The position numbers and the translations under genes were made by a program. From Bacilli bacterium (lineage in GTDB: Bacteria > Bacillota_I > Bacilli_A > ML615J-28 > CAG-313): 64,000 nucleotides of DNA. Numbering within the stretch: position 1 is the stretch's first letter; each line of letters starts with the position of its first letter. The DNA lies in NCBI GenBank assembly GCA_045589955.1, contig JAZNQD010000009.1, forward strand, positions 48,294 to 112,293. The letters run 5' to 3'. This document shows positions 9,846 to 24,449 of this stretch, piece after piece. The notes beneath the pieces were generated by a model, which saw only the letters and a list, made by a program, of their open reading frames with translations, did no database searches and had not been told where the DNA came from.

Positions 9846-9848
9846 AAT

Positions 9849-10082: not shown

Positions 10083-10088
10083 ATAATA

Positions 10089-10162: not shown

Positions 10163-10164
10163 AA

Positions 10165-11696: not shown

Positions 11697-11726
11697 ATTT
11701 ATTAACCTATTTTTTAATTTTTATAT

Positions 11727-11762
11727 ATTATACACTATAAAAACAAAAAAGTAAAACATTTT
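11727..11762 (-). promoter_or_regulatory. sigma70-like promoter (TGTTTTACTTT-17-TATAAT)
   Basis: Minus-sense TTTACT, 17-nt spacer, TATAAT, about 30 nt upstream of ATG 11696. Confidence 0.55.
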
Positions 11763-11766
11763 TTAA

Positions 11767-12546: not shown

Positions 12547-13175
12547 TATGCTCCATATGGATCTGAATCATTACCATAAATATCTTTACCAGCAGCTTTT
12601 TGTTTAAAATATTCTTCTCTGTCATACTGCATAGATTCAGGAGCAGTTTTATATTCTTCGTAGGATAGTTCTGGGTTTTCATACCATTTATTAAATTCAT
12701 CTAGATTAAACCATTCTATAAAGTCTAAACCTGCTTCTTGAGCAACTTGTCTTTTTAATGGATCTAATTCTGTCCAAGTATGTAAAATCTTTTTATAAAA
12801 TTCGCCCGGTTTATTTTCTAACCATTTTACATCATCTTGACAGTACGGATTATTAGCATCATACTTACTTCTACCGTGACGAATATGCTTATTATAATTA
12901 AAACCTTTATCTTCTGAAGGAATATAAAAGTCTAATTGAAAATGGCGATGAGTTTCTGGATTTACAAATCTATCATCTGTATATGACATTATAACATCTG
13001 GCCATTTTTCTTTTAATTTATCGAATATATATAATTCATCTTTACTTGTATTATAACCAGTTTCTTTGTCAAATATCTTCTTATCACCTTCACGAAGAAT
13101 ATTCTCTACAATTTCTCTAAAATTTTTCATATAAAAAAGGTCCCAAATATATATCACATATATACTTAGAACCAA
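12546..13175 (-). CDS. hypothetical protein (island gene 4); alternative start at 13130
   Basis: 209 aa ORF; internal ATG at 13128-13130 (MKNFREIVEN) may be the true start. Confidence 0.5.
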   Translation of the reverse strand: MVLSIYVIYIWDLFYMKNFREIVENILREGDKKIFDKETGYNTSKDELYIFDKLKEKWPDVIMSYTDDRFVNPETHRHFQLDFYIPSEDKGFNYNKHIRHGRSKYDANNPYCQDDVKWLENKPGEFYKKILHTWTELDPLKRQVAQEAGLDFIEWFNLDEFNKWYENPELSYEEYKTAPESMQYDREEYFKQKAAGKDIYGNDSDPYGA

Positions 13176-13436
13176 AATTCGTTATCTAAAGCCAAGCCAA
13201 CATACATTACTATATGGCTACCCTTTAGAACATGCAGTCTTTGTTTTGGTCTCGATAGCTCCCGTGCGCAGGGGATACAATTGGTTAGTTCACAAACCGC
13301 CTGAGACTCTGTGGCAATCTATTAAAAATTAATAGAATACTTTTTTAATCTACGAGTAGGATAAATAAGCCGGCACTCATCCTCTCTATCTGCATTCCAT
13401 CTAGCGTCTATACTTCCGCCATAACGAATTACTTAT

Positions 13437-13470
13437 TTTATACAATATACTTTTAACAATGTAAAGCAAA
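13437..13470 (-). promoter_or_regulatory. sigma70-like promoter (TTTTGCTTTACA-17-TATAAA) driving the 13176-13436 leader
   Basis: Minus-sense TTTACA, 17-nt spacer, TATAAA. Confidence 0.45.
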
Positions 13471-13473
13471 AAA

Positions 13474-13716
13474 TTATAATAACTCAATTAATTTTTGTTT
13501 ATTATACTTACGTAAAGCGTTTTTAGCTTCTAATTCGCTATCATATACTTCTTCGTATTCTTTTATCACATTTTGTTTATATGTATTTTCTTTTTGCATT
13601 AATTTCCAGCTAGCTATCCAACCAATAAGTTTATTTTGTAAAGCGGGATGTTCTGGACGTTTAAACGTTGATTTTTCTACATATACTTTATCTAAATTTA
13701 TTTCTGTGTTAATCAT
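13474..13716 (-). CDS. hypothetical protein
   Basis: 80 aa ORF. Confidence 0.5.
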   Translation of the reverse strand: MINTEINLDKVYVEKSTFKRPEHPALQNKLIGWIASWKLMQKENTYKQNVIKEYEEVYDSELEAKNALRKYNKQKLIELL

Positions 13717-13858
13717 TCTAACATTCCTTTATTAAAAAGTAGTATAAATAAATTAGGTCCCGATATTACTTACGAGACCTAACGGAATAACCTAAATAAG
13801 AAAGTAATAAAATATGAAAAACGAAAAACATTCTTCTTTATTTAGAACTACTTTTTTA

Positions 13859-14068
13859 TCAATAACAATAAAATTTATTTTTGTGTTCGATACATTCGTG
13901 ATAATTTGAATATAACAATTGATCATATGTCAATTCTGTTTTTTTATATCCAGCTCTTAAGATCTGTTCTTCCTTTGTATCTTTTTCTAAAGCCTTGCCT
14001 ATAACAATATTACTTAATACAACAACTACCATACCTATTGCAAAAATATCTAAACAATATAATTTCAT
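13859..14068 (-). CDS. small membrane protein
   Basis: 69 aa, one hydrophobic helix (IFAIGMVVVVLSNIVIG). Confidence 0.45.
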   Translation of the reverse strand: MKLYCLDIFAIGMVVVVLSNIVIGKALEKDTKEEQILRAGYKKTELTYDQLLYSNYHECIEHKNKFYCY

Positions 14069-14079
14069 AGTCCTACTCC

Positions 14080-15114
14080 TTAATATGTACTTAAATTATC
14101 AAAATATCCTTTAACATAAACAACCGGCGTTCCTTTATCACCACTACCAGATGTCAAATCCATTAAAGAACCTAATAAATCAGTTAATCTTCTTGGAGTA
14201 GTACCTTGTGAAACCATATTACCTACTAAATTTTTATCTTTTTCTTTGATACTTTGCTTAATAGTATTAGTTAAATCATCACCGCTTAAATCTTTATAAT
14301 CATTATCAGCTAAATATTTAAGTTTTAATTCGTTAGGTGTTCCTTTTAATCCATCTGTATAAGCAGGACTTACAACAGGATCAGCCAATTCCCAAATACC
14401 ACCAACAGGATCTTTAAAACAACCATCTCCATATACCATTACTTCAATTGTTTTTCCTGTTTTTTCATAAATTGTTTTTTGGATACAATCAATTAATTTT
14501 TTTGCAGAAGAATACGACGGAAATAATTTTAGCTTTTCTTCAGTCGCTTTATTACTTCCATATAGACCATATTCACATTTATCTGAACAAATATCTTTTA
14601 AGGTTATATCAAACGTATTTTTATGAATCTGACAATCTATAATCCCATTAACATTACATACCGATTCATTTTGGTATACAATATAACACTCTTTACCTTC
14701 TGCTTCAACAATTGATTTATAATATTCATCATAATTCAATCCGGTAAAAGGATGATTTTGTAATACATTACCAACTTCATCGACATTAGGCATTCTTATA
14801 TAAACAGTTCCAGTAACTGCTCGTGCAATACCTTTTAAAATCATTGCAAAACGATTACGCGAATAAATTGGATTAAATACTAAAATATCTTTTGGATTAT
14901 TGAATACTTTTTTAACAGATTCGGCAACTTCATCAACCGTAACATAATTACCTTCTGTTCTTGCAACAATAGATTCTGTAATACCTAAAACATCTTTATC
15001 ATCTATTTCTAACCCACTATTTAAAAGTGTATCTGAAACAATTTGAGCTAAATCATCACCTTCTTTGAAAATTGGACAAACTAATCCATATACAGATGTA
15101 CCTATTGTGCGCAT
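14080..15114 (-). CDS. CofE-like (F420-0:gamma-glutamyl ligase family) amide ligase homolog
   Basis: N-terminal [13 protein letters not shown]...[20 protein letters not shown] and C-terminal [12 protein letters not shown] resemble conserved CofE/FbiB blocks (GDDLAELI, SKAEGR, EGTPVV.VRG). Confidence 0.5.
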
Positions 15115-15138
15115 ATATAATCCCCTTTTTTAATGAAA

Positions 15139-15216
15139 TGGTGCGTCGAGCTGGATTCGAACCAACGACCAATCCGTTATGAGCGGACAGCTCTAACCGG
15201 GCTGAGCTACCGACGC
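15139..15216 (-). tRNA. tRNA-Met (CAT)
   Basis: Acceptor GCGTCGG/TCGACGC, anticodon loop CTCATAA, T-loop TTCGAAT, CCA; elongator or Ile-lysidine type not distinguishable. Confidence 0.7.
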
Positions 15217-15260
15217 ATATTTATTTAAATAACTAATAATCATGTTATTAAAAAATAAAA

Positions 15261-15334
15261 TGGCTGGAGGAACTGGAATCGAACCAGTATTCTGAGTGCC
15301 AAAAACTCATGTCCTTCCCTTAGACGATCCTCCA
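15261..15334 (-). tRNA. tRNA-Gln (TTG)
   Basis: Acceptor TGGAGGA/TCCTCCA, anticodon loop TTTTGGC, T-loop TTCGATT, CCA. Confidence 0.6.
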
Positions 15335-15338
15335 ATAA

Positions 15339-15423
15339 TGGTGGGTGAGGATGGATTTGAACCACCGATGTCTAAGACGGCGGATTTACAGTCCGCTGCA
15401 ATAACCAACTATGCGACTCACCC
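15339..15423 (-). tRNA. tRNA-Tyr (GTA), type II
   Basis: Acceptor GGGTGAG/CTCACCC, anticodon loop CTGTAAA, long variable arm, T-loop TTCAAAT, CCA. Confidence 0.65.
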
Positions 15424-15428
15424 TTAAA

Positions 15429-15505
15429 TGGTCGGAATGGCGAGACTTGAACTCACGACATCTAGTACCCAAAACTAGCGCTCTACCAGGCTGAGCTACA
15501 TTCCG
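15429..15505 (-). tRNA. tRNA-Pro (TGG)
   Basis: Acceptor CGGAATG/CATTCCG, D GCTC/GAGC, anticodon loop TTTGGGT, T-loop TTCAAGT, CCA. Confidence 0.7.
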
Positions 15506-15520
15506 AAAGGATATATTTTA

Positions 15521-15552
15521 TATATACTATAGAATAATAATTGTAAAACATA
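15521..15552 (-). promoter_or_regulatory. promoter for tRNA array 2 (TGTTTTACA-15-TATATA)
   Basis: Minus-sense TTTACA and TATATA about 15 nt before tRNA-Pro 5' end. Confidence 0.45.
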
Positions 15553-15557
15553 AAAAT

Positions 15558-15590
15558 AAAAAATACCCACAAAATTTCTTTTATGGGCAC
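15558..15590 (-). terminator. rho-independent terminator of 15700..15951 gene
   Basis: CCCA-loop-TGGG hairpin followed by TATTTTTTATTTTT on minus. Confidence 0.4.
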
Positions 15591-15699
15591 TTCCTACTTA
15601 TGAGATTATTTTAAGTAATAACTACCCATCAACCGTTTATAGGTTGTTGATAATAAGGGTAGAAATATGTCATCAAAATATTCATCATGGTTTATAGAA

Positions 15700-15951
15700 C
15701 TACTTTTTAAATAAAAAATTATGTATTTTTTCTAATTTATCTTTATTTATGTCGTTTTCTTTAGTATCGGGTATAATAGCATCTACTTTACAATGTGGAC
15801 AAATTGCAGTAAGTGTATCATCAGTCCATTCCTCTATTTCTACCGTTTTAATTTTTCTTTTACAATATGCACAATAGCAAAAATCTATTTCCGATAGAAC
15901 TTCACGGTTATATATTGTCTGAGTGAGATACTTTTTCATTATATATTCCAA
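15700..15951 (-). CDS. zinc-ribbon small protein
   Basis: CYCAYC...CPHC four-Cys pattern; likely true start ATG at 15937-15939. Confidence 0.5.
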   Translation of the reverse strand: MEYIMKKYLTQTIYNREVLSEIDFCYCAYCKRKIKTVEIEEWTDDTLTAICPHCKVDAIIPDTKENDINKDKLEKIHNFLFKK

Positions 15952-16013
15952 AAAAAAGTAGAAGAGGATTAAGTTAAAGACCGTATTTTACGAAAAACAC
16001 ACTCTTAATCCTC
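15951..16013 (-). terminator. rho-independent terminator of vWA gene
   Basis: 11-bp stem AGAGGATTAAG/CTTAATCCTCT (large loop) followed by U8 on minus sense. Confidence 0.5.
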
Positions 16014-16147
16014 TCCCGGCGTCGTGAACTCTACAGCTCCGACCGATTGCTTTCTACTAAGTGCAATCATTGTTACCACTATTCATGTATCATGTTTTGG
16101 TAAACTGCTGTACGTTTTTCACGGTCTCTAAATTATTATCTAGAACA

Positions 16148-17701
16148 TTAATATACTATTTGCATATAACGCTCTTGGTTAATAACTTTCAAAGTTGCTT
16201 CTAAAGCATCATAATCTTCGCCTAATGCAATTTTCATAACAGAAGGTGAACAACCAGATAACAAAATATTATTCTTATCGTTAACCGTAATAGGAGTTTG
16301 ATTACTACGACTATCTACGTTCCACCATATTAACTTAGGTAAAGTATATCCAGCTTTTTCATATTTAGCCTTTATACCTTCATAATTAGTAAAACCAAAT
16401 GAGTATTCATCAAATTCCATATCTGAAATAATAATAAGTTGTTTTGGCATATCAGCATCTGGTACTTTTTCGGCAACAGCTCTTTTCAAAATTAAATCGA
16501 AAACACTTTGTAAATTAGTATTACTACAATCACCGGTAAAAACAGAACGAATTTTATCCAATAATGTATTACCTTTAACTATTTTCCACTGTGCGTTACA
16601 TGAAAAAGGAATTACATAGTTACGCCAAACCAAAGACTTATTTCTTTCTGCTATATAAATTGCTAAAGACAAAGATACAGCCATCGGTAAACCATTCATT
16701 GAACCAGATGTATCGCAAACAACCAAACCGTTTATTTCTGGTACATAATCCGGTAAAGCTTTCCATTGCGCCTCGACAGTAGGATTTATATTGATATGAG
16801 AGCCATAACCAATAAAATCATAAGCATCACTATAAACCCGAATTAAATCATACGGATATAATGTTTTAGCATTTATTTTAGCTTTACCTTCTTTTACCGC
16901 TTCTATATACGCATTATACTTATCAGAATCGTTTTTAAAGAAAGCTTTTCTGTATTTAAATGCAGCATAAGAAGGAAGATTTTCATAGTTAATTTTATCG
17001 TATTCTTTATTAACTAATTTTGTTTCAACTATATCCAAATCTTTACGTAATAAAACCAAAGCTCTTCTATAAGCTCCAATTGCACCAAACTTCCCAGATT
17101 TCAACAGTATATTTAACCACTTACGTTTTTCTGCATTTTTTACGCTTGTTCGTGGTAACCATTTAGCTAATAAAGAAATATCATATAATTCACCTTTAAA
17201 ATGATGTTGTAAATCTTTTTCTAATTGCATACCTATATAATCTATTACTTCATCTCGACAAGCAGTAAGTAATAGTGGCATATAATCATCATATCTACCA
17301 TATTCTGCAATTAAACCTAAATTTTTGCATATCCAATCTTTTTCGACATTACCTAAATATTCTAAGCAAATACGAAATACTTTACGTTCACCTTGTCCGC
17401 CTCTTACATCACGAATATAAAAAAGAGTACGTAAAGCCAAAGTTTTATCATAGTTAAATGCATTTACAAAAAGATTTAATATACGAGATTTATCAGTTTC
17501 TTTACGTAAAGCTGCACCATGAAAAAACCAATCAACAAGAGCGTTTTGTGTAGAAATATTAGTCAACGCCCCATTTTCAGTATAGGTTTTATTTGACATA
17601 GCATTAATAAACGCATTAGTAGAAGATTCACTTACTAATGGTATAGCTTTAAACTCAGAAATTTTTGCAGTATATCCTAATAAATCTGTATATGTTTTCA
17701 T
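16148..17701 (-). CDS. vWA-domain protein with MIDAS motif and N-terminal helical DUF2828/TROVE-like module
   Basis: LVVCDTSGSMNG (DxSxS MIDAS) about residue 330; N-terminal YIRDVRGGQGERKVF block reminiscent of DUF2828 proteins; promoter upstream. Confidence 0.5.
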   Translation of the reverse strand: MKTYTDLLGYTAKISEFKAIPLVSESSTNAFINAMSNKTYTENGALTNISTQNALVDWFFHGAALRKETDKSRILNLFVNAFNYDKTLALRTLFYIRDVRGGQGERKVFRICLEYLGNVEKDWICKNLGLIAEYGRYDDYMPLLLTACRDEVIDYIGMQLEKDLQHHFKGELYDISLLAKWLPRTSVKNAEKRKWLNILLKSGKFGAIGAYRRALVLLRKDLDIVETKLVNKEYDKINYENLPSYAAFKYRKAFFKNDSDKYNAYIEAVKEGKAKINAKTLYPYDLIRVYSDAYDFIGYGSHININPTVEAQWKALPDYVPEINGLVVCDTSGSMNGLPMAVSLSLAIYIAERNKSLVWRNYVIPFSCNAQWKIVKGNTLLDKIRSVFTGDCSNTNLQSVFDLILKRAVAEKVPDADMPKQLIIISDMEFDEYSFGFTNYEGIKAKYEKAGYTLPKLIWWNVDSRSNQTPITVNDKNNILLSGCSPSVMKIALGEDYDALEATLKVINQERYMQIVY

Positions 17702-17729
17702 AACTAATCCCTCTTTTTATACAAGACAT

Positions 17730-17765
17730 ATTATAGGTAAAAAAATTTAAAGTAAAACAAAAAAC
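17730..17765 (-). promoter_or_regulatory. sigma70-like promoter of vWA gene (TTTTTTGTTTTACTTT-15-TATAAT)
   Basis: Minus-sense TTTACT and TATAAT; GAGGG RBS before ATG 17701. Confidence 0.5.
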
Positions 17766-17775
17766 GATATTTTAA

Positions 17776-17991
17776 TTATTCACTTTCTTCTGAATCCGAT
17801 TCGATATAGTTTAATTTGTTATAATTCGAATCTACAATTTCTTTAGTGCGAATAGATTCTTCATAAAAACGATCTTCATGGTTGACAATACCCAATGCCC
17901 ATAACAATTGAATGAATCGCATATCTGGGCATTTTTCAACCATATCTGCTACTTTATCTAAAATATATTTATTTGTATCATTACGACTCAT
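17776..17991 (-). CDS. hypothetical protein
   Basis: 71 aa ORF. Confidence 0.45.
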   Translation of the reverse strand: MSRNDTNKYILDKVADMVEKCPDMRFIQLLWALGIVNHEDRFYEESIRTKEIVDSNYNKLNYIESDSEESE

Positions 17992-18338
17992 GCATTTGTC
18001 CTCTATTAATATTTAAAACAATACTTAACGCAGTACAAATATAATTTCAAGTTGATAAGAAATGCTAATTTTGATACTGCGTTTTAGTCATCTGTGCTTT
18101 GTCACTCCGATGAACCCGAGCATTCCACTTCGATCTTTAAGCAGCCAATCTGGACCCGATCTCTGTTCTCTTTATACTAGTAAACAGTCGTGAGCTAACT
18201 CTAGTAGTGTCTTTCCAACCAGCCAGATGTCTTTCCATCAGTATAGAGATTAACCACATTAAAGAATCACCAATAACTGTTAATCTCTTTTATAGAAGAT
18301 ACTACATTGCAAATTTCTCTTCTACAAATTCCTATAAA

Positions 18339-18431
18339 TGGCGGAATCAGAAGGATTCGAACCTTCGGCCCCTCATAATAAGGGACGACAGTTTAGCAAA
18401 CTGCTGGTTTCAGCCACTCACCCATGATTCC
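18339..18431 (-). tRNA. tRNA-Ser (GCT), type II
   Basis: Acceptor GGAATCA/TGATTCC, anticodon loop TGCTAAA, long variable arm, T-loop TTCGAAT, CCA. Confidence 0.7.
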
Positions 18432-18442
18432 AAAAAAAAAAC

Positions 18443-18520
18443 GGCTAGAGGAGGTGGAGTCGAACCACACACAACCAATATCTGCAGATACTAGAATTTC
18501 CCTCTACTTCCCGTCTTCTT
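18443..18520 (-). ncRNA. truncated tRNA-like element (acceptor stem + T-arm, single 8-bp hairpin replacing D and anticodon arms)
   Basis: Acceptor TAGAGGG/TCCTCTA, T-arm GTGG-TTCGACT-CCAC, hairpin CTAGTATC-TGCA-GATATTGG, 3' end CCG not CCA, followed by U10. Confidence 0.4.
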
Positions 18521-18579
18521 AATCAAACTTTCTTTCTGCAGAAATACTTATTTGACATAGTAGAGCTCCTCTTATAAAA

Positions 18580-18655
18580 TGGTGGAGGTAAGGAGGTTCG
18601 AACTCCTGACCCCCTGCTTGCAAAGCAGGTGCTCTCCCAACTGAGCTATACCCCC
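18580..18655 (-). tRNA. tRNA-Ala (TGC)
   Basis: Acceptor GGGGGTA/TACCTCC with G3:U70, anticodon loop TTTGCAA, T-loop TTCGAAC, CCA. Confidence 0.75.
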
Positions 18656-18862
18656 ACAAAAATAATATCTTATATAAGCGATTAATTGATACTTTATATA
18701 CAAGGTGCGAATCAGCGTTAGGCAGAGTTAGGACAATAAATCTTTCGGATATCACGACTTACCTAAGAAAATTCCTGTTAGCTCTTTCGGTGGTTGCCTC
18801 TATCATTCGTGTGTTAGATTTACTCAATTAATCATAATCCCTCGCACAAGGAATAGATATAA

Positions 18863-18938
18863 TGGCACACTCAACAGGACTCGAACCTGTAATAAAAGTT
18901 TAGAAGACTTTGGGTTTGTCCAATTAGCCTATGAGTGT
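18863..18938 (-). tRNA. tRNA-Arg (TCT)
   Basis: Acceptor ACACTCA/TGAGTGT, anticodon loop CTTCTAA, T-loop TTCGAGT, CCA; weak D-stem. Confidence 0.6.
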
Positions 18939-18940
18939 AA

Positions 18941-19012
18941 AAAATGAAGTAAACTAACCGTTAGACTGAATAGACAGTAAAGGAGTCGAACCTTATTTAA
19001 TTACTTCATAAA
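18941..19012 (-). ncRNA. tRNA-sized degenerate tRNA-like remnant
   Basis: Exactly fills the gap between tRNA-Arg and tRNA-Asp; 9-bp terminal stem ATGAAGTAA/TTACTTCAT and internal AAGG-TTCGACT-CCTT T-arm-like hairpin but no canonical cloverleaf on either strand. Confidence 0.3.
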
Positions 19013-19015
19013 AAC

Positions 19016-19092
19016 TGGCGGGATTGATGGGGCTCGAACCCACGACCCTCTGCGTGACAGGCAGATATTCTAACCAGCTGAACTACAACCCC
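19016..19092 (-). tRNA. tRNA-Asp (GTC)
   Basis: Acceptor GGGGTTG/CAATCCC, anticodon loop CTGTCAC, T-loop TTCGAGC, CCA. Confidence 0.7.
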
Positions 19093-19229
19093 GTAAATGG
19101 TGGATAGGTGGGATTTTCACCCACATTTTTTAATTGACCGGTAAGTTTTACATTTCAAAAACACTCATAATGATTTATCTAGATAATTACTATTTTAATT
19201 TTTGTTTTTAAACTACTATCCTATAAAAA

Positions 19230-19314
19230 TGGCGGAGGGTGAGGGACTCGAACTCTCACAACCTTTCGGTCGGCGGTTTTCAAGACCGCTGCAATACCAT
19301 TATGCGAACCCTCC
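19230..19314 (-). tRNA. tRNA-Ser (TGA), type II
   Basis: Acceptor GGAGGGT/ACCCTCC, anticodon loop CTTGAAA, long variable arm, T-loop TTCGAGT, CCA. Confidence 0.7.
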
Positions 19315-19486
19315 AAAATAAAGGTGCTTTATCAGTACTCTTACGTAATAAAGCTTCGACTGCAGTTCAGGCATCCTTTCCACCTATATAGATGTAGTTC
19401 TATACCGACTCCCTATTTCAAACATTAGGGGCATGTACCAAACAAACTTATCTAGAATCAATGTTCGTTTGGATTTAAAGTACAGA

Positions 19487-19687
19487 TTATTTAAATACTA
19501 CTGGCATAACACTTAAATAATCCGTACTTTCTTTTTTCCAATCAAACTTTTTTATTTCTTTTTTCTTATTTTTAATTACTCTAGTACGTAATAAACCTTT
19601 TAACTGAGCCTCTATCAACATAAAATTTCGTCTTTTAGGCGCTTTAATTTTAAGCTTAAACTTATTTTTCATAATCTTGACCTTCAA
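19487..19687 (-). CDS. small highly basic hypothetical protein
   Basis: 66 aa, Lys/Arg rich; directly downstream of ACP gene. Confidence 0.4.
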   Translation of the reverse strand: MKVKIMKNKFKLKIKAPKRRNFMLIEAQLKGLLRTRVIKNKKKEIKKFDWKKESTDYLSVMPVVFK

Positions 19688-19938
19688 ATATGTTTTTCAA
19701 GATATTCAACTAAGTCCTTTACAGTTTCTATTTTTTCAGCATCATTATCTGCAATTTCTAAACCAAATTCTTCTTCAACGTACATAATTAATTCAACATG
19801 ATCTAAACTATCTAAATATAAATCATTATCAAAAGTATGTGTCATAAGAATTTCATTTCTATGCTTACCTGACACGTCTTCAATTAATTTTGCAACTTTA
19901 TTGAATATCTCTTTGTTTTCCATGACCATTTCTTTCAT
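19684..19938 (-). CDS. acpP: acyl carrier protein
   Basis: MKEMVMENKEIFNKVAKLIEDV...DNDLYLDSLDHVELIMYVEEEFGLEIADNDAEKIETVKDLVEYL carries the DSL phosphopantetheine-attachment motif and helix-II acidic patch. The ORF-track N-terminal extension 19939..20106 is spurious because it overlaps two tRNAs. Confidence 0.75.
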   Translation of the reverse strand: MKEMVMENKEIFNKVAKLIEDVSGKHRNEILMTHTFDNDLYLDSLDHVELIMYVEEEFGLEIADNDAEKIETVKDLVEYLEKHI

Positions 19939-19943
19939 ATAAT

Positions 19944-20019
19944 TGGAGCGAGTGAACGGGCTCGAACCGTCGACATCAACCTTGGCAAGGTTGCGCTCTA
20001 CCAACTGAGCTACACTCGC
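19944..20019 (-). tRNA. tRNA-Gly (GCC)
   Basis: Acceptor GCGAGTG/CACTCGC, D GCTC/GAGC, anticodon loop TTGCCAA, T-loop TTCGAGC, CCA. Confidence 0.75.
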
Positions 20020-20028
20020 AAAAAATGC

Positions 20029-20150
20029 GGGTAAGGGATAGATTCGAACTACCGACCAAGAGGTTACCAACCATGCAGATACAATTGCTGTGCCTATTTT
20101 TACCAAAATAGTTTATTTGCTTCTTGCTCTAACCGCTGAGCTACCTTACC
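20029..20150 (-). tRNA. anomalous 122-nt tRNA (candidate Thr, GGT) with about 50 nt of extra internal sequence; possible intron-containing gene or pseudogene
   Basis: Perfect acceptor GGTAAGG/CCTTACC, D-arm GCTC-AGCGGTTAGA-GC and T-arm GGTAG-TTCGAAT-CTATC, internal CTATT-TTGGTAA-AATAG anticodon-like hairpin, 3' end GCA instead of CCA. Confidence 0.4.
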
Positions 20151-20158
20151 CATAAGAA

Positions 20159-20398
20159 CTAACTTATTTCAATAGTTTTAAATAAAAATGTAATGGTAAT
20201 CTGAAATGTACGAATTATATCTTCATCTAAAACTTCTACAAATAACACTTTATCACCGTCTAATGCAACACTTTTCGAATACCATTCTGGATGTTTTTCT
20301 ACCCATTCTTGCGCTAATGACATGGGATGAAGATTTTGTTCACTCTCATAGTCTTCCCAGTCAATATCATTTTGTAATCGTATTTTACATTTTTGCAT
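20159..20398 (-). CDS. hypothetical protein
   Basis: 79 aa ORF. Confidence 0.45.
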   Translation of the reverse strand: MQKCKIRLQNDIDWEDYESEQNLHPMSLAQEWVEKHPEWYSKSVALDGDKVLFVEVLDEDIIRTFQITITFLFKTIEIS

Positions 20399-20420
20399 TT
20401 AACATCTTTCTTTTAAATTG

Positions 20421-20507
20421 TGGTGGGCTAGGCCGGAATCGAACCGGCACGGGATTGCTCCCAACAGATTTTAAGTCTGCAGCGTCTACCAGTTCCGCCA
20501 CAAGCCC
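20421..20507 (-). tRNA. tRNA-Leu (TAA), type II
   Basis: Anticodon loop CTTAAAA, long variable arm, T-arm GCCGG-TTCGATT-CCGGC, CCA. Confidence 0.7.
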
Positions 20508-20526
20508 ATATTAAGTAATAATTTCT

Positions 20527-20567
20527 TAAAAAAGAAGTGTCCTTTATTTTCAAGAACACTTACAATA
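20527..20567 (-). terminator. rho-independent terminator after small basic protein gene
   Basis: Hairpin AAGTGTTC...GGACACTT followed by CTTTTTTAAG on minus. Confidence 0.4.
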
Positions 20568-20603
20568 TGCATTAAAATTTTTAAATGTAAAACAAAAAAG
20601 TGA

Positions 20604-20789
20604 TTATTTTTTCTTTTTACTCGCTACTTGTAAAGTGACTTCTTTTTTAGCAGTGTTAGTATTACACGATGGAGCTTTACCAACTGTTGATTTTAATAAA
20701 TGAAAGCTTGGCATTAATTTCATTCTTTTTGCCCAGCGTTTAGCAAACATTATTTCTTCAACAGTTTTCTTTTTCTTTTCCATAGCCAT
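20604..20789 (-). CDS. small basic protein (61 aa)
   Basis: Start moved to ATG 20787-20789 (MAMEKKKK) with AGGAG RBS; the longer ORF-track start overlaps tRNA-Asn. Confidence 0.45.
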   Translation of the reverse strand: MAMEKKKKTVEEIMFAKRWAKRMKLMPSFHLLKSTVGKAPSCNTNTAKKEVTLQVASKKKK

Positions 20790-20815
20790 TATATCATACT
20801 CCTTTTTATAAAAAT

Positions 20816-20890
20816 TGGCTGGGATGGAGGGATTCGAACCCCCGACCAATCGGTTAACAGCTGATTGCACTGCCGCTGTGCTACATCCCA
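20816..20890 (-). tRNA. tRNA-Asn (GTT)
   Basis: Acceptor TGGGATG/CATCCCA, D GCAC/GTGC, anticodon loop CTGTTAA, T-loop TTCGAAT, CCA. Confidence 0.65.
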
Positions 20891-20902
20891 ATGATTAAAA
20901 GT

Positions 20903-20979
20903 TGGTTGGCCGAGCGAGACTTGAACTTGCGACCCCAGCTTTATCAGAGCTGTGCTCTAACCACCTGAGCTACCGACCA
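20903..20979 (-). tRNA. tRNA-Ile (GAT)
   Basis: Anticodon stem CAGCT/AGCTG with loop CTGATAA, T-loop TTCAAGT, CCA. Confidence 0.7.
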
Positions 20980-20984
20980 ATAAA

Positions 20985-21060
20985 TGGTGCCAGCAGAGAG
21001 ACTTGAACTCCCAACCTTCTCATTACAAGTGAGTTGCTCTACCAATTGAGCTATGCTGGC
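20985..21060 (-). tRNA. tRNA-Thr (TGT)
   Basis: Acceptor GCCAGCA/TGCTGGC, D GCTC/GAGC, anticodon loop CTTGTAA, T-loop TTCAAGT, CCA. Confidence 0.7.
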
Positions 21061-21077
21061 AATGTATAATATAAGAA

Positions 21078-21596
21078 CTATTCTCTCGAATTATTTTTAG
21101 AAACAAATTTCTGTTTTTTATTCTTTTTGGAATTTTTCATATATTTATTTCTAATTTCTTGTATTTTCTGCTTCTTTTGTTGAAGTAACATATTCTCATA
21201 TCGTTTACGTATTTCTTTAGCACTTTTATCAGCTTCCTTGTTATAATAAGAAAGGACAGTACCGTCTTGGCAATGTCCCTTAATCCACATAACATGGCAA
21301 TTCAAAGCTTCTAATCGTTCTAAAATGTTATCGAGAATTATTTTTTCATTTGGTCGATATGAGCCATTTCTAATTGCGTGAATTGCGTATGAAGAATCCG
21401 TTAACAAGGTAATATGTTCTTTAGTATCTTTTATACTAACAAGAGCAAATAAAATAGCGCGTAATTCAGCAGTATTATTATCAGATTCTTCTACAACCGC
21501 AGCATCTCTAAAAATTTCTCTGTTTCTAGCGTCTGTAATAACAAATGCTATACCCGAATTATTTTTACGTGTGCTTGCGTCGGTATATATTTTCAC
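21078..21596 (-). CDS. rnhA: ribonuclease H (RNase HI-like)
   Basis: DASTRKNNSGIAFVI...AELRAILFAL...LLTDSSYAI...MWIKGHCQDGT...NKEADKSAKE matches D-E-D-H-D RNase H catalytic layout. Confidence 0.6.
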   Translation of the reverse strand: MKIYTDASTRKNNSGIAFVITDARNREIFRDAAVVEESDNNTAELRAILFALVSIKDTKEHITLLTDSSYAIHAIRNGSYRPNEKIILDNILERLEALNCHVMWIKGHCQDGTVLSYYNKEADKSAKEIRKRYENMLLQQKKQKIQEIRNKYMKNSKKNKKQKFVSKNNSRE

Positions 21597-21649
21597 AAGA
21601 TTTGTCCTAGCTTAATTTACCTATTATCTAGAACATTTAGTGATATAAT

Positions 21650-21726
21650 TGGTGATCCCGACGAGATTCGAACTCGTGATCTTCTCCGTGAAAGGGAGAT
21701 GTCCTAGGCCGCTAGACGACGGGACC
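21650..21726 (-). tRNA. tRNA-Glu (TTC)
   Basis: Close to canonical bacterial tRNA-Glu: GGTCCCG-TC-GTCT-AGCGGCCTA-GGAC, anticodon loop CTTTCAC, T-loop TTCGAAT, CCA. Confidence 0.8.
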
Positions 21727-21831
21727 ATTGGCGGGGGTAGCTATATCGGTGTCATTGCGCAACCTATGTAAACGTCCAAACTATAACTAGTATTCGTAAG
21801 GATAGTTTTACCGACCCCCATAGTATAAATC

Positions 21832-22104
21832 TTAAACAGCTACGTTTATACTTGCTCCAACAGAAGTCATTGCACCAGTCATTGCACCTGAAGAATTATA
21901 ACCTGGACAAGCTGGCTGACCAACTGCATTTCTATAATGCTCGCTTGCAATTCCTTGTGTTTGTGACGAATTCAAAGCAATTAAAATCGATTTTTTCTTT
22001 TCATCATCCTCATCATTAATAATAGCAATCATAGATGAAGATTGACTGCTATAAGTAGATTGACAAGGTGACATTATTTGTGTATTTATTCCGCCTACTT
22101 CCAT
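21832..22104 (-). CDS. hypothetical Ser/Gly/Ala-rich small protein
   Basis: 90 aa ORF. Confidence 0.4.
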   Translation of the reverse strand: MEVGGINTQIMSPCQSTYSSQSSSMIAIINDEDDEKKKSILIALNSSQTQGIASEHYRNAVGQPACPGYNSSGAMTGAMTSVGASINVAV

Positions 22105-22155
22105 GATTTAATATCCTTTTTTTAATATTATCATTTTATAGAACGGTTATTTAAT

Positions 22156-22231
22156 TGGTTGCGAGGGGAGGAATTGAACCTCCTACCCCAAGGTTATGAG
22201 CCTTGTAAGCTAACCGTTGCTCTACCTCGCA
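22156..22231 (-). tRNA. tRNA-Met (CAT), second copy
   Basis: Acceptor TGCGAGG/CCTCGCA, anticodon stem CAAGG/CCTTG with loop CTCATAA, T-arm GGAGG-TTCAATT-CCTCC, CCA. Confidence 0.65.
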
Positions 22232-22756
22232 ATAAAAACAAATTTCTTTTATAGACGCTTAAGTAATAACAATCTAATTAAGACCAAGTCCTGACTAAGA
22301 AATTTAAGACTGCCAGTGTTATATTATTAAATAGGCTAATATAACAGAATAGCTTATTATTTTTTATATCGTTTCTTATTCACTATGTATTATAACTTTT
22401 GTTTCTAAAATAAATATTTACATTAAAAAATGCAATATGTAAAACAGAATATTGTATAGAATATGAAATTATTTTAATTTTGTTATAAAAAGTTATAAAA
22501 AAAGAAAAAAGTGTATCAAATTGGCGAAGATACACTTTTTTAGAGGAGAGTCAGTGATTATGTTGCTTAGTTTTTATTTAATCCAACGACGACATCCCAA
22601 GCAATAATTTCGCCGTTTTCAGGAAGAGCTTTTTTGGCATCTTCCTCAGTTTGAAAAGTTTGAGCGGCAAGTAAACCTTTCCATTCATTCTCTTCTGTTA
22701 AATATGCATCATATGAATATTCTTTATTCTTGATAACAAACATCTATATCTCCTTT

Positions 22757-23119
22757 TTATCTTCCATTTGATGTATTTCTATCTATATGAACTTCTGTTA
22801 CGTCAGCTTCTTTTGAATTTGTTTTTCCATTTTTAGCAATATATTTATCTATAGTATGATCAAGTCTTTCTAATTTATAATCTTTTATGTTTTCAATTTT
22901 TTCTTGGTCTAAATTATAGATTTGTTTTATCTGGTGTAACATAATTTCTACATCAGCTACTTCTTCTGCAATATTTTCAACGTTATCTGTTCCGCGGTGT
23001 ACATTTTCAAACAAAGCTTTTTGCAATTCCATTAATTCTTCAATTGCTTGCATAGTTTGATTTTTTTCACCAAATGTATTTATTACTCTATAAATAGTAC
23101 GATTTTGTTTAGGTGTCAT
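22757..23119 (-). CDS. MazG-like nucleotide pyrophosphohydrolase
   Basis: AIEELMELQKALFE ... AEEVADVEIMLHQI matches the two EExxE/D metal-binding helices of small MazG/HisE-type NTP-PPases. Confidence 0.55.
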   Translation of the reverse strand: MTPKQNRTIYRVINTFGEKNQTMQAIEELMELQKALFENVHRGTDNVENIAEEVADVEIMLHQIKQIYNLDQEKIENIKDYKLERLDHTIDKYIAKNGKTNSKEADVTEVHIDRNTSNGR

Positions 23120-23274
23120 TTTATAATTCCTGAATCATAGCACGTTCCTTTATGAATATGAGTTACGGTTTTTGGTTCAACCTCTGCTACACATTTCGTT
23201 ATACTTATTACACATACACAAATAATTATTGCACGTAAAACAGAATTTAAACAATATACCAAAACTTTTTTCAT
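23116..23274 (-). CDS. small Cys-rich hydrophobic peptide (52 aa)
   Basis: Hand-translated MKKVLVYCLNSVLRAIIICVCVISITKCVAEVEPKTVTHIHKGTCYDSGIIK; ATGA overlaps at both ends (coupled to guaC-like and mazG-like genes). Confidence 0.35.
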   Translation of the reverse strand: MKKVLVYCLNSVLRAIIICVCVISITKCVAEVEPKTVTHIHKGTCYDSGIIK

Positions 23275-24449
23275 AAAATACCCTTTCCATCATTATTTAA
23301 AATGCGGCGAACTTTATAAAATGTTGTTACTTTTGGAAAATCTTTTAGTTTTGTACAATTTATATAAGTCATGGTACTTCTTAATGATCCTAAATAGTCA
23401 TCAATAATATTTTGTACTGGACCAACGTATTCTTTTAATGTAACAATACCTTCTGATGTTCTGTAGTTAGCCATACCATTCCAATGTTTATCTTGGGCAT
23501 ATTTAGATGACATTCCATAGGCAAGTTTGAATTTTTTAGCTTCATATTTTGGTTTATCGGGGACATAAATTTCATCAATTAATGTAAATCCATCAACAAC
23601 TCTTTCTTCTGTTTCTATATAATAATCATATTCATTAGTGCGGTATACTTTTTCAATAATATCACCTTCAGCTTCATCAGTTCCAGCAACTAAAGAACCA
23701 ACCATTACAAAATCGGCACCTGCTCCATACGCCTTTGCAATATCACCATAGCAAGTAATTCCACCATCAGCACAGATATATCCACCCACCGCATGAGCAG
23801 CTTCTGCACAATCTAGTACGGTAGATAATTGTGGACGTCCAACTCCTGTTTGTTTTCTTGTCGTACAATTAGCACCCGGTCCAATCCCACACTTAACTAA
23901 GTCTGCTCCGGCTAATATTAAATCTTGGACCATATCTCCGGTTACAACATTACCAACCATTATAACGATATCTGGATACTCTTTTCTAAATAAACTTACT
24001 GCTTCTAAAAGCTTTGGAATATATCCATTAGCAATATCAATACATAAATTTTTACAAAGACCTGTATCTAAAATACGTTTTGTCTTATTTACGTCTTCAG
24101 TATTTATGCCAGTTGATAAAAAGATATAATCGTTTCCACAAATATGTCCATCAAAAGTTTTGGCAGAAAGATTATTTTCAGTAAAAAATTCATAAAGGCT
24201 GTCAAAAGAATAATGCTTTTGTAAACAACAGAACATTTTATTATATTGAAAAACTTTAGCCATTTCAAATGTACCTGTAGTTGCCATATTAGCTACAGTT
24301 AATCCATTTCCTTCTATTGTTCTATTTGACCATTTAAACGTATACTTTCTATATACATTAGGCTCTTTTCTTGAATTTAAAGTAGAGCGTTTAGGTTTAA
24401 TCAATACATCGCAATAATCTAGCTGTTCTTCGTTTATAACCTGTGTCAT
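23271..24449 (-). CDS. guaC: GMP reductase (GuaC-type, IMPDH/GMPR family)
   Basis: DVLIKPKRSTLNSR...TFKWS...ANMATTGTFEMA ... GADLVKCGIGPGANCTTRKQTGVGRPQLSTVLDCAEAAHAVGGYICADGGI...GADFVMVGS aligns block by block with bacterial GuaC. Confidence 0.7.
   Translation of the reverse strand: MTQVINEEQLDYCDVLIKPKRSTLNSRKEPNVYRKYTFKWSNRTIEGNGLTVANMATTGTFEMAKVFQYNKMFCCLQKHYSFDSLYEFFTENNLSAKTFDGHICGNDYIFLSTGINTEDVNKTKRILDTGLCKNLCIDIANGYIPKLLEAVSLFRKEYPDIVIMVGNVVTGDMVQDLILAGADLVKCGIGPGANCTTRKQTGVGRPQLSTVLDCAEAAHAVGGYICADGGITCYGDIAKAYGAGADFVMVGSLVAGTDEAEGDIIEKVYRTNEYDYYIETEERVVDGFTLIDEIYVPDKPKYEAKKFKLAYGMSSKYAQDKHWNGMANYRTSEGIVTLKEYVGPVQNIIDDYLGSLRSTMTYINCTKLKDFPKVTTFYKVRRILNNDGKGIL

What the first reader, a model, noticed from the sequence alone, without database searches (positions are those of the whole stretch)
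18443..19012. Two tRNA-like but non-canonical elements embedded between bona fide tRNAs
Element A (18443-18520) is a minimal tRNA mimic: acceptor stem plus T-arm (TTCGACT loop) with one replacement hairpin. Element B (18941-19012) exactly fills the 77-nt slot between tRNA-Arg and tRNA-Asp. It has a 9-bp terminal stem and a TTCGACT T-arm-like hairpin, but the arm order fits neither strand as a cloverleaf. Candidate functions include decayed tRNA genes, processing signals (RNase P/Z substrates that punctuate the polycistronic tRNA transcript), Y-RNA-like modules, or decoys for host tRNA-targeting anticodon nucleases.
Basis: seen in the sequence. Interest (0 to 1): 0.55.

Follow-up and report, generated by a model that had tools for sequence, protein, structure and literature searches.

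The report
Odd tRNA-shaped RNAs beside phage Ro60-like gene
Two real, tRNA-derived but non-decoding RNA elements sit in a phage tRNA cluster just upstream of a previously unrecognised Ro60-like gene; one is a tRNA opened at the anticodon and closed at the acceptor end (the layout of bacterial Y RNAs), but both lack the sequence signature shared by the RNAs that accompany this gene family, so their function is unproven.

Summary
Both elements are present as described, on the minus strand. B (18944-19009) has a perfect 9-bp terminal stem enclosing a T-arm, a closed 4-bp hairpin and a D-loop-like hairpin. This is a tRNA circularly permuted at the anticodon, the topology of bacterial YrlA Y RNAs. 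A is the 3' part of a 130-nt cloverleaf-like cassette (18443-18572) with a perfect acceptor helix and T-arm but no D-arm or anticodon loop.

The ORF 1.2 kb downstream (16148-17701) has a Ro60 fold. Across 77 related phage loci this gene family is flanked on its own strand by RNAs carrying a stem + ACAGCAR module (215 vs 12 within 1 kb). Some are covariation-supported YrlA-type tRNA mimics, and some are tRNAs carrying the module as an insert. The window has that module at 16130-15975 and 20029-20150, but not in A or B.

B fails Rfam YrlA and a family-specific covariance model. It is identical in the only close relative, which is uninformative at 3.6% divergence. A is absent from another close relative.

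Best reading (0.42): B is a minimal Y-RNA-like tRNA mimic and A an accessory tRNA-like cassette of this Ro60-like system. The main rival (0.38) is that both are relics of rapid tRNA-cluster turnover.

The parts
18944..19009 (-). Element B: a 66-nt permuted tRNA-like RNA. Terminal stem 19009-19001 / 18952-18944, T-arm 18994-18980, closed acceptor-like hairpin 18978-18965, D-loop-like hairpin 18964-18954. It sits in the 77-nt slot 18939-19015 between tRNA-Asp and tRNA-Arg.
   Evidence: stem P 0.002-0.005; the halves resemble the 3' half of a Lys-like tRNA and the 5' half of a Glu/Val-like tRNA. It is identical in L095.
18443..18572 (-). Element A, full cassette ('A-long', 130 nt). Acceptor 18572-18566 / 18453-18447, long irregular arm 18565-18559 / 18508-18502, 8-bp hairpin with UGCA loop 18494-18475, T-arm 18468-18454, 3' tail AGCC, then a T10 run.
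   Evidence: There is one substitution versus L095 (18476, G.U to A-U). The cassette is absent from L002.
16148..17701 (-). Ro60-like protein gene (517 aa; Pfam DUF2828 + DUF7788; helical TROVE-like ring plus a vWA domain with a DTSGS MIDAS motif).
   Evidence: AF2 model pLDDT 88. The top Foldseek PDB hits over the full length are Ro60/Rsr/phage Ro60, E 2e-8 to 3e-5.
15975..16130 (-). Post-gene Y-like RNA carrying the family signature. Outer stem 16127-16121 / 15984-15978, inner stem 16120-16112 / 16000-15992, 3' bulge GUAAAAU 15991-15985, ACAGCAG 16111-16105. A terminator follows.
   Evidence: It is conserved with covarying outer stems in L002, L093, L007, L009, L089, L008 and L010.
20029..20150 (-). 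'Long tRNA-Thr(GGU)'. Acceptor, D-arm, T-arm and 7-nt anticodon loop are complete, with a 49-nt insert (hairpin 20111-20094 + CAGCAAU 20090-20084) in the 5' strand of the anticodon stem.
   Evidence: ARAGORN -i. Rfam tRNA 44 bits with the insert. Homologs occur in every close relative. Top hit of family model R1.
19016..19092 (-). tRNA-Asp(GTC), the upstream neighbour of B. Its 3' maturation would define B's 5' end.
18863..18938 (-). tRNA-Arg(TCT), the downstream neighbour of B. RNase P cleavage at its 5' end would define B's 3' end.
18580..18655 (-). tRNA-Ala(TGC), the upstream neighbour of A-long.
18339..18431 (-). tRNA-Ser(GCT), the downstream neighbour of A. It is replaced by tRNA-Ser(ACT) in L095 and L002.

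Best explanation
This phage carries a Ro60-like ribonucleoprotein system inside its tRNA cluster, and A and B are non-decoding, tRNA-derived RNAs that belong to that system's RNA repertoire.

B is a minimal Y-RNA-like tRNA mimic. It is a tRNA circularly permuted at the anticodon. The former anticodon stem, extended to 9 bp, closes the molecule. The acceptor is reduced to a closed 4-bp hairpin. The T-loop and a GG-containing D-loop remain, so a tRNA 'elbow' could form.

B would be released without any dedicated machinery, by RNase P cleavage at the 5' end of tRNA-Arg and 3' maturation of tRNA-Asp (inferred). It would then act as a tRNA-shaped ligand or effector module for the Ro60-like protein or for tRNA-binding enzymes (inferred, not shown).

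A is a 130-nt tRNA-shaped cassette that keeps the acceptor/T-arm minihelix but has neither a D-arm nor an anticodon loop. It is an accessory member that comes and goes between close relatives.

Shown here: the anatomy, the tRNA ancestry of the parts, the Ro60 fold of the neighbouring protein, and the tight linkage of that protein family to tRNA-like and Y-like RNAs. Inferred: expression, processing, protein binding and any function.
For: 1. B's arm order (terminal stem, T-arm, closed hairpin, D-arm, terminal stem) is that of the Rfam YrlA consensus and of Chen et al. 2014 (PMC4201824).
2. B's 9-bp perfect closing stem is improbable by chance (0.2-0.5% of shuffles). Its two halves resemble different tRNAs (Lys-like T-arm, Glu/Val-like D-arm), so the complementarity is not simply inherited from one anticodon stem.
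3. The ORF 1.24 kb downstream on the same strand has a Ro60 fold.
4. In 77 non-redundant loci of this protein family, stem + CAGCA[AG] RNAs lie within 1 kb on the gene strand 215 times, against 12 on the opposite strand. 65 of 77 loci have at least one.
5. Thirteen of these RNAs have full YrlA topology, with 18 of 23 base pairs showing compensatory changes. Rfam YrlA scores them at 34-49 bits, E 5e-8 to 2e-3. Permuted tRNA mimics are therefore a normal product of such loci.
6. The window has the signature module right after the gene and inside a long tRNA, so the system looks intact here.
7. B and A are retained in the 96%-identical relative L095. B has 0 changes in 66 nt, and A's only change converts G.U to A-U.
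Against: A and B lack both GNCGAA and the ACAGCAR module.

B gets no Rfam YrlA hit even at E<=10 in a 151-nt search. Family model R1 recovers only its T-arm (7.8 bits).

B's canonical D-stem is broken: the 3' strand is UUU where GAC is expected. Its T and acceptor helices are only 4 bp.

No B or A homolog was found in 94 related loci, in IMG/VR or in GTDB genomes, so no covariation test is possible.

Conservation in L095 is weak evidence. Divergence is only 3.6% (P about 0.09 for B), and the whole 18443-19092 block is quiet, including the unstructured spacer S1.

A is missing from L002, whose Ro60-like protein is 97% identical. Neither fold of A is significantly more stable than shuffles.

There is no expression or binding data.
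Confidence: 0.42

Rival explanations
1. A and B are evolutionary debris. They would be non-functional relics left by the rapid gain, loss, swapping and recombination of tRNA and Y-like RNA genes in this cluster. B would be a decaying descendant of a YrlA-type RNA or of a tandem tRNA junction, and A a decaying long tRNA.
For: The cluster turns over very fast, even between 96-97% relatives. tRNA-Gly is deleted and tRNA-Ser is swapped (GCT to ACT) in L095. A and S2 are absent and tRNA-Val is present in L002. The long tRNA's anticodon loop changes.

B has a broken D-stem, 4-bp T and acceptor helices and no protein-binding motif. A lacks a D-arm and an anticodon loop, ends in GCC rather than CCA, and its fold is not significant. 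Neither element is found outside this lineage.
Against: B's perfect 9-bp closing stem has P 0.002-0.005 by chance and joins halves that resemble different tRNAs. Decay would erode it rather than extend an anticodon stem from 5 to 9 bp. B shows no substitution and A shows one structure-preserving substitution versus L095, while the nearby spacer C has 10 in 137. A keeps a perfect 7/7 acceptor helix abutting the T-arm.
Confidence: 0.38
2. The elements are structural spacers of the polycistronic tRNA transcript. They would be stable hairpin-closed segments that aid processing, protect against exonucleases, or weakly terminate or attenuate transcription, since both are followed by T-runs.
For: B exactly fills the gap between two tRNAs and is followed by U6. 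A is followed by U10. The acceptor/T-arm minihelix of A could be an RNase P/Z substrate (established knowledge, not tested here).
Against: Other adjacent tRNAs in the same cluster are separated by only 2-12 nt, so no punctuation is needed. The T-runs are not conserved in L095: B's changes from TTTTTT to TTTATT, and A's T10 is shortened by four bases and ends in C. The stems are AT-rich with large loops, which makes them poor intrinsic terminators. This reading does not explain why the spacers keep T-loop and D-loop sequences.
Confidence: 0.1
3. The elements are decoys or substitutes aimed at host tRNA-targeting defences such as anticodon nucleases, or they are hidden decoding tRNAs (split or permuted tRNA genes supplying the missing Lys or Val).
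For: Phage tRNA clusters are thought to counter host tRNA depletion or cleavage (general knowledge). The window lacks tRNA-Lys and tRNA-Val. B's T-arm half is Lys-like and its D half is Val/Glu-like.
Against: Neither element has a 7-nt anticodon loop. B's ends fall where the loop would be, and A's corresponding hairpin has a 4-nt UGCA loop. B has no free acceptor end to be aminoacylated. Permuted tRNA genes of the Cyanidioschyzon type retain the anticodon loop. The window is only part of the genome, so the missing tRNAs may lie elsewhere.
Confidence: 0.04

Closest known systems
YrlA, the bacterial/phage Y RNA with a tRNA-like domain (Rfam RF02553; Chen et al. 2014, PMC4201824)
   Same: B has the same topology: a terminal helix at the position of the anticodon stem, then a T-arm, an acceptor-like helix closed by a loop, and a D-arm. 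It is encoded within 4 kb of a Ro60-fold protein gene on the same strand. Phage examples of YrlA are known.
   Different: B has no GNCGAA(N)G motif, no long Ro-binding stem and no V arm. Its acceptor-like and T helices are only 4 bp, and its D-stem is degenerate. It gets no score against RF02553. The partner protein is DUF2828/DUF7788, not a Pfam TROVE protein.
DUF2828-associated Y-like RNAs defined here (terminal stem (U)A(A)GAY.../...RUCU(U)A + ACAGCAAY, with or without a tRNA-like core)
   Same: They share the genomic niche, in phage tRNA clusters beside the same protein family. The YrlA-type members share B's permuted tRNA topology, for example the compact 92-nt L058:6798-6889.
   Different: A and B lack the ACAGCAR motif and the consensus terminal helix. 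Family model R1 does not recognise them. In the window that signature is at 16130-15975 and 20029-20150 instead.
Circularly permuted tRNA genes (Cyanidioschyzon merolae type; recalled from memory, not tested)
   Same: The 3' half of a tRNA is encoded upstream of the 5' half, and the acceptor strands are joined by a short linker.
   Different: Those genes keep the anticodon loop and mature into ordinary decoding tRNAs. B's termini fall exactly where the loop should be, so no anticodon exists.
Small stable RNAs of unknown function in the phage T4 tRNA cluster (species 1/2, rnaC/rnaD; recalled from memory, not tested)
   Same: They are non-tRNA small RNAs co-transcribed and co-processed with phage tRNAs, with tRNA-like 3' portions. 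This is similar to A-long and to the 19093-19229 element.
   Different: No sequence relationship was tested. T4 encodes no Ro60-like protein.

Membership tests
Canonical tRNA (Rfam RF00005 / ARAGORN) | Cloverleaf order acceptor-D-anticodon-T, recognised by tRNA models | tested here: not met
   Neither element is called by ARAGORN default or by Rfam tRNA at E<=10. A is called only at the 80% threshold, as tRNA-??? with a 2-nt anticodon. B is never called.
Canonical tRNA (Rfam RF00005 / ARAGORN) | 7-nt anticodon loop on a 5-bp stem | tested here: not met
   B's termini lie where the loop would be. A's hairpin has 8 bp and a 4-nt UGCA loop.
Canonical tRNA (Rfam RF00005 / ARAGORN) | T-arm with the T-loop consensus UUCRANY | tested here: met
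   Both have a UUCGACU loop on 4-bp stems.
YrlA (RF02553; Chen et al. 2014) | Arm order: terminal stem, T, closed acceptor-like stem-loop (AS), D, terminal stem | tested here: met
   Met for B by direct reading of the sequence against the RF02553 consensus structure line and the paper's description. Not met for A, whose arms are in normal order.
YrlA (RF02553; Chen et al. 2014) | Encoded within 4 kb of a Ro60 ortholog, on the same strand | tested here: inconclusive
   B lies 1.24 kb and A 0.74 kb upstream of 16148-17701 on the same strand. That protein has a Ro60 fold but matches Pfam DUF2828/DUF7788, not TROVE, and phmmer finds no Ro60 in the PDB by sequence.
YrlA (RF02553; Chen et al. 2014) | GNCGAAN0-1G motif near the 5' end | tested here: not met
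   The motif is absent from 18939-19015 and from 18443-18579 (sequence; criterion).
YrlA (RF02553; Chen et al. 2014) | Score at or above the Rfam gathering threshold (69 bits) | tested here: not met
   No YrlA hit on B even at E<=10 in a 151-nt search. The only YrlA hit in the window (24 bits) is a tandem-tRNA artefact at 19971-20081.
YrlA (RF02553; Chen et al. 2014) | tRNA-like tertiary contacts (G18/G19 with pseudouridine-55/C56, D-stem, Levitt pair) and tRNA-type modifications | not testable with these tools
   GG is present in B's D-loop and the T-loop is canonical, but the D-stem's 3' strand is UUU rather than GAC. Modifications need experiments.
DUF2828-associated Y-like RNAs (defined here) | Terminal or hairpin helix followed by ACAGCA[AG] | tested here: not met
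   On the minus strand of the tRNA/Ro60 region, ACAGCAR occurs only at 16105-16111 and 20085-20091, not in A or B.
DUF2828-associated Y-like RNAs (defined here) | Significant score against covariance model R1 (13 sequences, 23 pairs, 18 covarying) | tested here: not met
   In the whole-window search the B region scores 18.6 bits, E 0.18, with the wrong boundaries. Restricted to the slot, only the T-arm aligns, at 7.8 bits. A is not hit.
Ro60/TROVE protein family (for the neighbouring gene) | HEAT-repeat ring plus C-terminal vWA domain with MIDAS | tested here: met
   The AF2 model has pLDDT 88. Full-length Foldseek hits are 1yvr, 2i91, 9nep, 2nvo, 9l5y and 9kop (E 2e-8 to 3e-5, TM 0.35-0.57). 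D330, S332 and S334 are invariant.
Ro60/TROVE protein family (for the neighbouring gene) | Detectable sequence membership (Pfam TROVE PF05731) | tested here: not met
   Pfam hits are only DUF2828 and DUF7788. phmmer against PDB sequences finds no Ro60.
Permuted tRNA gene (Cyanidioschyzon type) | The two halves reconstitute a complete tRNA, including the anticodon loop | tested here: not met
   B has no loop nucleotides beyond the terminal stem; the flanks are U-runs and the neighbouring tRNAs.

The most novel reading that the evidence does not exclude
DUF2828/DUF7788 proteins are a large, unrecognised phage branch of Ro60. Their Y RNAs form a continuum of tRNA-shaped molecules: tRNAs with an intact anticodon loop that carry the protein-binding hairpin + ACAGCAAU as an insert, circularly permuted YrlA-type mimics, and small hairpin RNAs. 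On this reading B is the minimal, module-less tRNA-elbow effector of that RNP, acting in trans, and A is a second accessory ligand. This would show how Y RNAs arise from tRNAs, and that a phage Ro60-like RNP works directly on or with the phage's own tRNA pool.
Probability: 0.2. Interest if true: 0.75.

Novelty: new variant of a known kind. Interest (0 to 1): 0.55.

Why it matters
The function of the tRNA-like domain of bacterial Y RNAs, and the origin of Y RNAs, are open questions. This locus and its relatives offer a natural series: ordinary tRNAs, tRNAs with a Ro-binding insert, permuted YrlA-type mimics, and a stripped-down 66-nt core (B). All lie beside one protein family that folds like Ro60 but is annotated only as a domain of unknown function.

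If B and A are functional, they define the minimal tRNA-shaped ligand of such a system. If they are relics, they record how these RNAs are born and die.

Either way, the context suggests that many phages with tRNA arrays carry a Ro60-type RNA quality-control or repair RNP. This can be tested directly by pull-down and small-RNA sequencing.

Tried and rejected
**Searches that found no relative of A or B**
- Megablast of the region against GenBank phages matched only individual tRNAs.
- Rfam at E<=10 over 9000-23000, and over the B slot alone, found nothing for A or B.
- nhmmer and blastn-short of A, B and the neighbouring spacers against 94 fetched loci found no homologs. The only match was B's T-arm plus AAUUAAAU with a 62-nt mini tRNA-like RNA in L006, which is too short to establish homology.
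- Three pattern scans of IMG/VR and one of GTDB genomes for A- or B-like sequences returned nothing, apart from one hit in a Saccharibacteria MAG that I did not inspect.
- The closest Ro60-like homologs are 97% and then 68% identical. No relatives of intermediate divergence are in the databases, so covariation for B cannot be obtained.

**Ideas rejected**
- tmRNA-like domain: ARAGORN gives only spurious low-threshold 'tmRNAp' calls.
- Coding potential: only short overlapping ORFs that run through tRNAs.
- S1 (18656-18862) as a structured RNA: z +0.65.
- Conservation in L095 as proof of selection on B: the whole block is low in divergence.
- A as a decayed copy of L002's tRNA-Ser(ACT): MAFFT aligns the T-arms, but L002 simply lacks the A cassette and has that tRNA after it, as L095 does.
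- The top window hit of family model R1, which pairs the long-tRNA module with the tRNA-Gly anticodon loop: treated as a tandem-tRNA artefact of the kind Chen et al. warn about.
Full report
**1. What is in the sequence**

The window is part of an AT-rich, myovirus-like phage genome, with a tail sheath gene at 37492-39453 and a DnaB-like helicase at 25646-27061. No GenBank phage is close at the DNA level. ARAGORN finds 20 tRNAs, all on the minus strand, and Rfam confirms them. Neither tool calls the two elements, even at Rfam E<=10.

A scan for T-loop hairpins outside called tRNAs finds three orphans with a canonical UUCGA loop in the tRNA zone. Two are A (18454-18468) and B (18980-18994), both with the loop UUCGACU. 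The third is at 20037-20053.

**2. Element B**

On the minus strand the 77-nt slot between tRNA-Asp (ends 19016) and tRNA-Arg (starts 18938) reads:

GUUUUU-AUGAAGUAA-UUAAAU-AAGG UUCGACU CCUU-U-ACUG UCUAUU CAGU-CUAA CGG UUAG-U-UUACUUCAU-UUUUUU

- The 9-bp closing stem is perfect. With the T-arm held fixed and the flanks shuffled, a stem that long arises in 0.2-0.5% of trials.
- The four-helix structure is within about 1 kcal/mol of the MFE.
- The 5' half resembles the 3' half of a tRNA: the 3' strand of an anticodon stem (UGAAG), a variable region, and a Lys-like T-arm.
- The 3' half resembles the 5' half of a tRNA: a Glu/Val-like GUCUAACGGUUAG D-arm, then CUUCA, the 5' strand of the anticodon stem.

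B is therefore a tRNA circularly permuted at the anticodon, with the loop missing and the acceptor reduced to a closed 4-bp hairpin. The Rfam YrlA consensus runs outer stems, T-arm, short hairpin, D-arm, outer stems, and Chen et al. 2014 describe YrlA in the same way.

B is also degenerate. The 3' strand of its D-stem is UUU where GAC is expected, and its T and acceptor helices have only 4 bp.

**3. Element A**

The acceptor 3' strand CUCCUCU, which abuts the T-arm as in a real tRNA, pairs 7/7 with AGAGGAG at 18572-18566, 7 nt after tRNA-Ala.

The MFE of 18443-18579 is a 130-nt cloverleaf-like fold (z -1.09):
- the acceptor helix
- a long irregular arm in the D position
- an 8-bp hairpin with a UGCA loop in the anticodon position
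- the T-arm
- a 3' tail AGCC followed by U10

ARAGORN calls A only at a relaxed threshold, with a 2-nt 'anticodon'.

**4. The context that matters**

The 517-aa ORF at 16148-17701, on the same strand, lies 0.74 kb downstream of A and 1.24 kb downstream of B. It matches Pfam DUF2828 + DUF7788 and a PHROG annotated 'RNA-binding protein'. Sequence search finds no solved relative.

An AlphaFold model built on 36 homologs (pLDDT 88) has Ro60 as its best full-length structural matches: Xenopus and human Ro60, Deinococcus Rsr, and Thermus phage phiLo Ro60 (E 2e-8 to 3e-5). Matches to vWA/MIDAS domains alone follow. A DxSxS MIDAS motif is invariant. The protein is therefore a divergent Ro60-like protein.

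**5. What accompanies this protein family elsewhere**

I fetched 80 IMG/VR loci plus metagenomic contigs that encode homologs. Many carry arrays of strong orphan T-arms on the gene's strand. Three RNA types recur, and all carry a helix followed by ACAGCAA(Y).

- **Small hairpin RNAs** of 62-75 nt, immediately next to the gene.
- **YrlA-topology RNAs.** Their order is terminal stem, ACAGCAAY, a small hairpin, T-arm, closed acceptor hairpin, canonical D-arm, terminal stem.
- **'Long tRNAs'** of 112-123 nt. The module is a hairpin inserted in the 5' strand of the anticodon stem, and the 7-nt anticodon loop stays intact.

In 77 non-redundant loci, modules within 1 kb of the gene number 215 on its strand and 12 on the other. 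65 of the 77 loci have at least one.

Thirteen YrlA-type members align with 18 of 23 pairs showing compensatory changes. Rfam YrlA scores such RNAs at 34-49 bits (E 5e-8 to 2e-3), below its gathering score of 69.

Phage Ro60 with Y-like RNAs is known for canonical TROVE proteins (PMC4201824, PMC12135203, PMC7824862). I found nothing in the held literature on DUF2828/DUF7788 or on this module.

**6. Where the module is in the window**

- Directly after the gene's stop codon, at about 16130-15975: UAGAGACCGU-GAAAAACGU-ACAGCAG ... GUGUUUUUC-GUAAAAU-ACGGUCUUUA. This is a bulged double helix, conserved with covarying outer stems in eight relatives of the window's clade, and a terminator follows it.
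- Inside the long tRNA-Thr(GGU) at 20029-20150.

A and B have no ACAGCAR.

**7. Membership tests for A and B**

B gets no Rfam YrlA hit. A covariance model built from the 13 family members (R1) gives its only significant window hit at the long-tRNA module (36 bits, E 4e-5). This is a tandem-tRNA type alignment that runs into tRNA-Gly.

The region containing B scores 18.6 bits (E 0.18), with the wrong boundaries. Restricted to the slot, only the T-arm aligns. In the window's clade the model finds only long-tRNA modules and a post-gene RNA. B therefore shares the topology but is not a detectable member of either family. A has a different topology altogether.

**8. Comparative evidence**

Only one relative covers the slots. 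L095 is an ENA contig found through the ACP gene inside the cluster, and it is about 96% identical over window 24000-16000.

| Feature | Substitutions vs L095 |
|---|---|
| B (stem to stem) | 0 of 66, plus one change in the spacer just after the stem |
| A-long | 1 of 130 (G.U to A-U in the hairpin) |
| AT-rich element 19093-19229 | 10 of 137 |
| Long tRNA-Thr | 9 of 122 |
| S1 (18656-18862) | 2 of 207 |
| Whole aligned region | 3.6% |

The whole 18443-19092 block is quiet, including S1, which has no significant fold. The conservation of B (P about 0.09) is therefore weak evidence.

L002, whose Ro60-like protein is 97% identical, has tRNA-Ala, then TTTTTT, then tRNA-Ser(ACT), tRNA-Val and the small ORF. 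It lacks the A cassette and the 345-nt spacer S2, so A is an indel-polymorphic unit.

The cluster turns over quickly. In L095, tRNA-Gly is deleted, tRNA-Ser is swapped, and the long tRNA's anticodon loop changes.

No other homolog of A or B exists in 94 loci, IMG/VR or GTDB genomes. The protein's homologs jump from 97% to 68% identity, so no relatives of intermediate divergence are available.

**9. Interpretation**

The anatomy rules out decoding and anticodon-nuclease decoy roles. Punctuation is unnecessary, because other tRNAs in the cluster are 2-12 nt apart.

Two readings remain.

- **B is a minimal Y-RNA-like tRNA mimic and A an accessory cassette (0.42).** B's non-random closure joins halves of different tRNA ancestry. 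Its topology is the one that Ro60-like loci repeatedly generate. The element is retained in L095. These points favour a tRNA mimic that tRNA processing would release and that works with the Ro60-like system.
- **Both are relics of a rapidly rearranging cluster (0.38).** The missing binding module, the degenerate helices, the lineage restriction, A's dispensability and the fast turnover favour this reading.

I rate the two as close. Expression, processing and binding are all inferred.

**10. Verdict**

The more notable result lies around the finding. There is an unannotated Ro60-like protein family in phages, tightly linked to a covariation-supported family of tRNA-shaped and hairpin RNAs that carry an ACAGCAR module, including tRNAs with the module inserted.

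Noticed in passing
window 16148-17701 (-) and 15975-16130 (-): The DUF2828/DUF7788 protein has a Ro60 fold. A conserved bulged-helix RNA with ACAGCAG follows its stop codon directly and ends in a terminator. Together they look like a Ro60 / Y-RNA operon that appears not to be described.
   Followed up: yes
window 20029-20150 (-): A 122-nt tRNA-Thr(GGU) has a 49-nt insert (hairpin + CAGCAAU) in the 5' strand of the anticodon stem. The insert is not at the canonical intron site, and the anticodon loop is intact. Every close relative has one, mostly Thr GGT/TGT. In L095 the loop reads UCGUUAA, so decoding may not be conserved.
   Followed up: partly
window 19093-19229 (-): A third odd element has a 6-bp acceptor helix GGAUAG/CUAUCC, the T-arm-like GUGGG-UGAAAAU-CCCAC, a discriminator A and an encoded CCA. 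These enclose about 100 nt of AT-rich sequence. It evolves fast (10 of 137 positions differ from L095).
   Followed up: partly
window 18656-18862 (-) and 17994-18338 (-): Two long non-coding spacers lie in the tRNA array. S1 is GNRA-rich and nearly invariant versus L095 (2 of 207), but its fold is not significant (z +0.65). S2 is replaced by tRNA-Val(TAC) in L002.
   Followed up: partly
window, whole tRNA set 9849-22231 (-): The 20 tRNAs cover 18 amino acids. Lys and Val are missing, which is surprising for an AT-rich genome, although the window is only part of the genome.
   Followed up: no
L002:72-161, L095:5489-5578, L006:3811-3900, L010:4523-4610, L089:7486-7573, L092:7335-7422, L093:252-336: A tRNA-Ser with the unusual anticodon ACT recurs just upstream of the Ro60-like gene in relatives. 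The window has tRNA-Ser(GCT) at that place.
   Followed up: no
L006:1096-1158 and 5838-5900; L094:2358-2420: These are 62-nt 'mini tRNA-like' RNAs with an acceptor helix, a D-like arm, an AG(C/U)AAU linker and a T-arm, but no anticodon arm. They sit directly upstream of the Ro60-like gene. B shares AAUUAAAU plus the T-arm sequence with one of them.
   Followed up: partly
L001:6623-6752, 6918-7040, 7204-7331: These are permuted tRNA-like RNAs with 9-10-bp terminal stems plus (A)CAGCA. One keeps an anticodon-like loop, and two have ACCA inside the acceptor loop. That recalls M. smegmatis YrlA, which is cut by RNase P and receives CCA.
   Followed up: partly
L095 vs window 19944-20019: tRNA-Gly(GCC) is cleanly deleted in the 96%-identical relative, and tRNA-Met (22156-22231) differs at 13 of 76 positions. 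The tRNA cassettes turn over much faster than the flanking genes.
   Followed up: partly
window 19684-19923, 21078-21596, 14080-15114, 23271-24449 (all -): An acyl carrier protein, an RNase H, an F420-0:gamma-glutamyl ligase-like protein and an IMPDH/GMP-reductase-like protein are interspersed with the tRNAs.
   Followed up: no
L021:4522-4773; L001:4288-4361; L071:7854: A related phage contig carries a cyanobacterial-type permuted tmRNA (116 bits). Others carry tRNAs with a CUA anticodon, which are suppressor-like.
   Followed up: no
window 18545-18538 and 18488-18481 (-): A-long contains the palindrome UCUGCAGA twice, each forming a hairpin with a UGCA loop. The significance is unknown. It is one mismatch from the CAGCAG variant of the family motif.
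   Followed up: no
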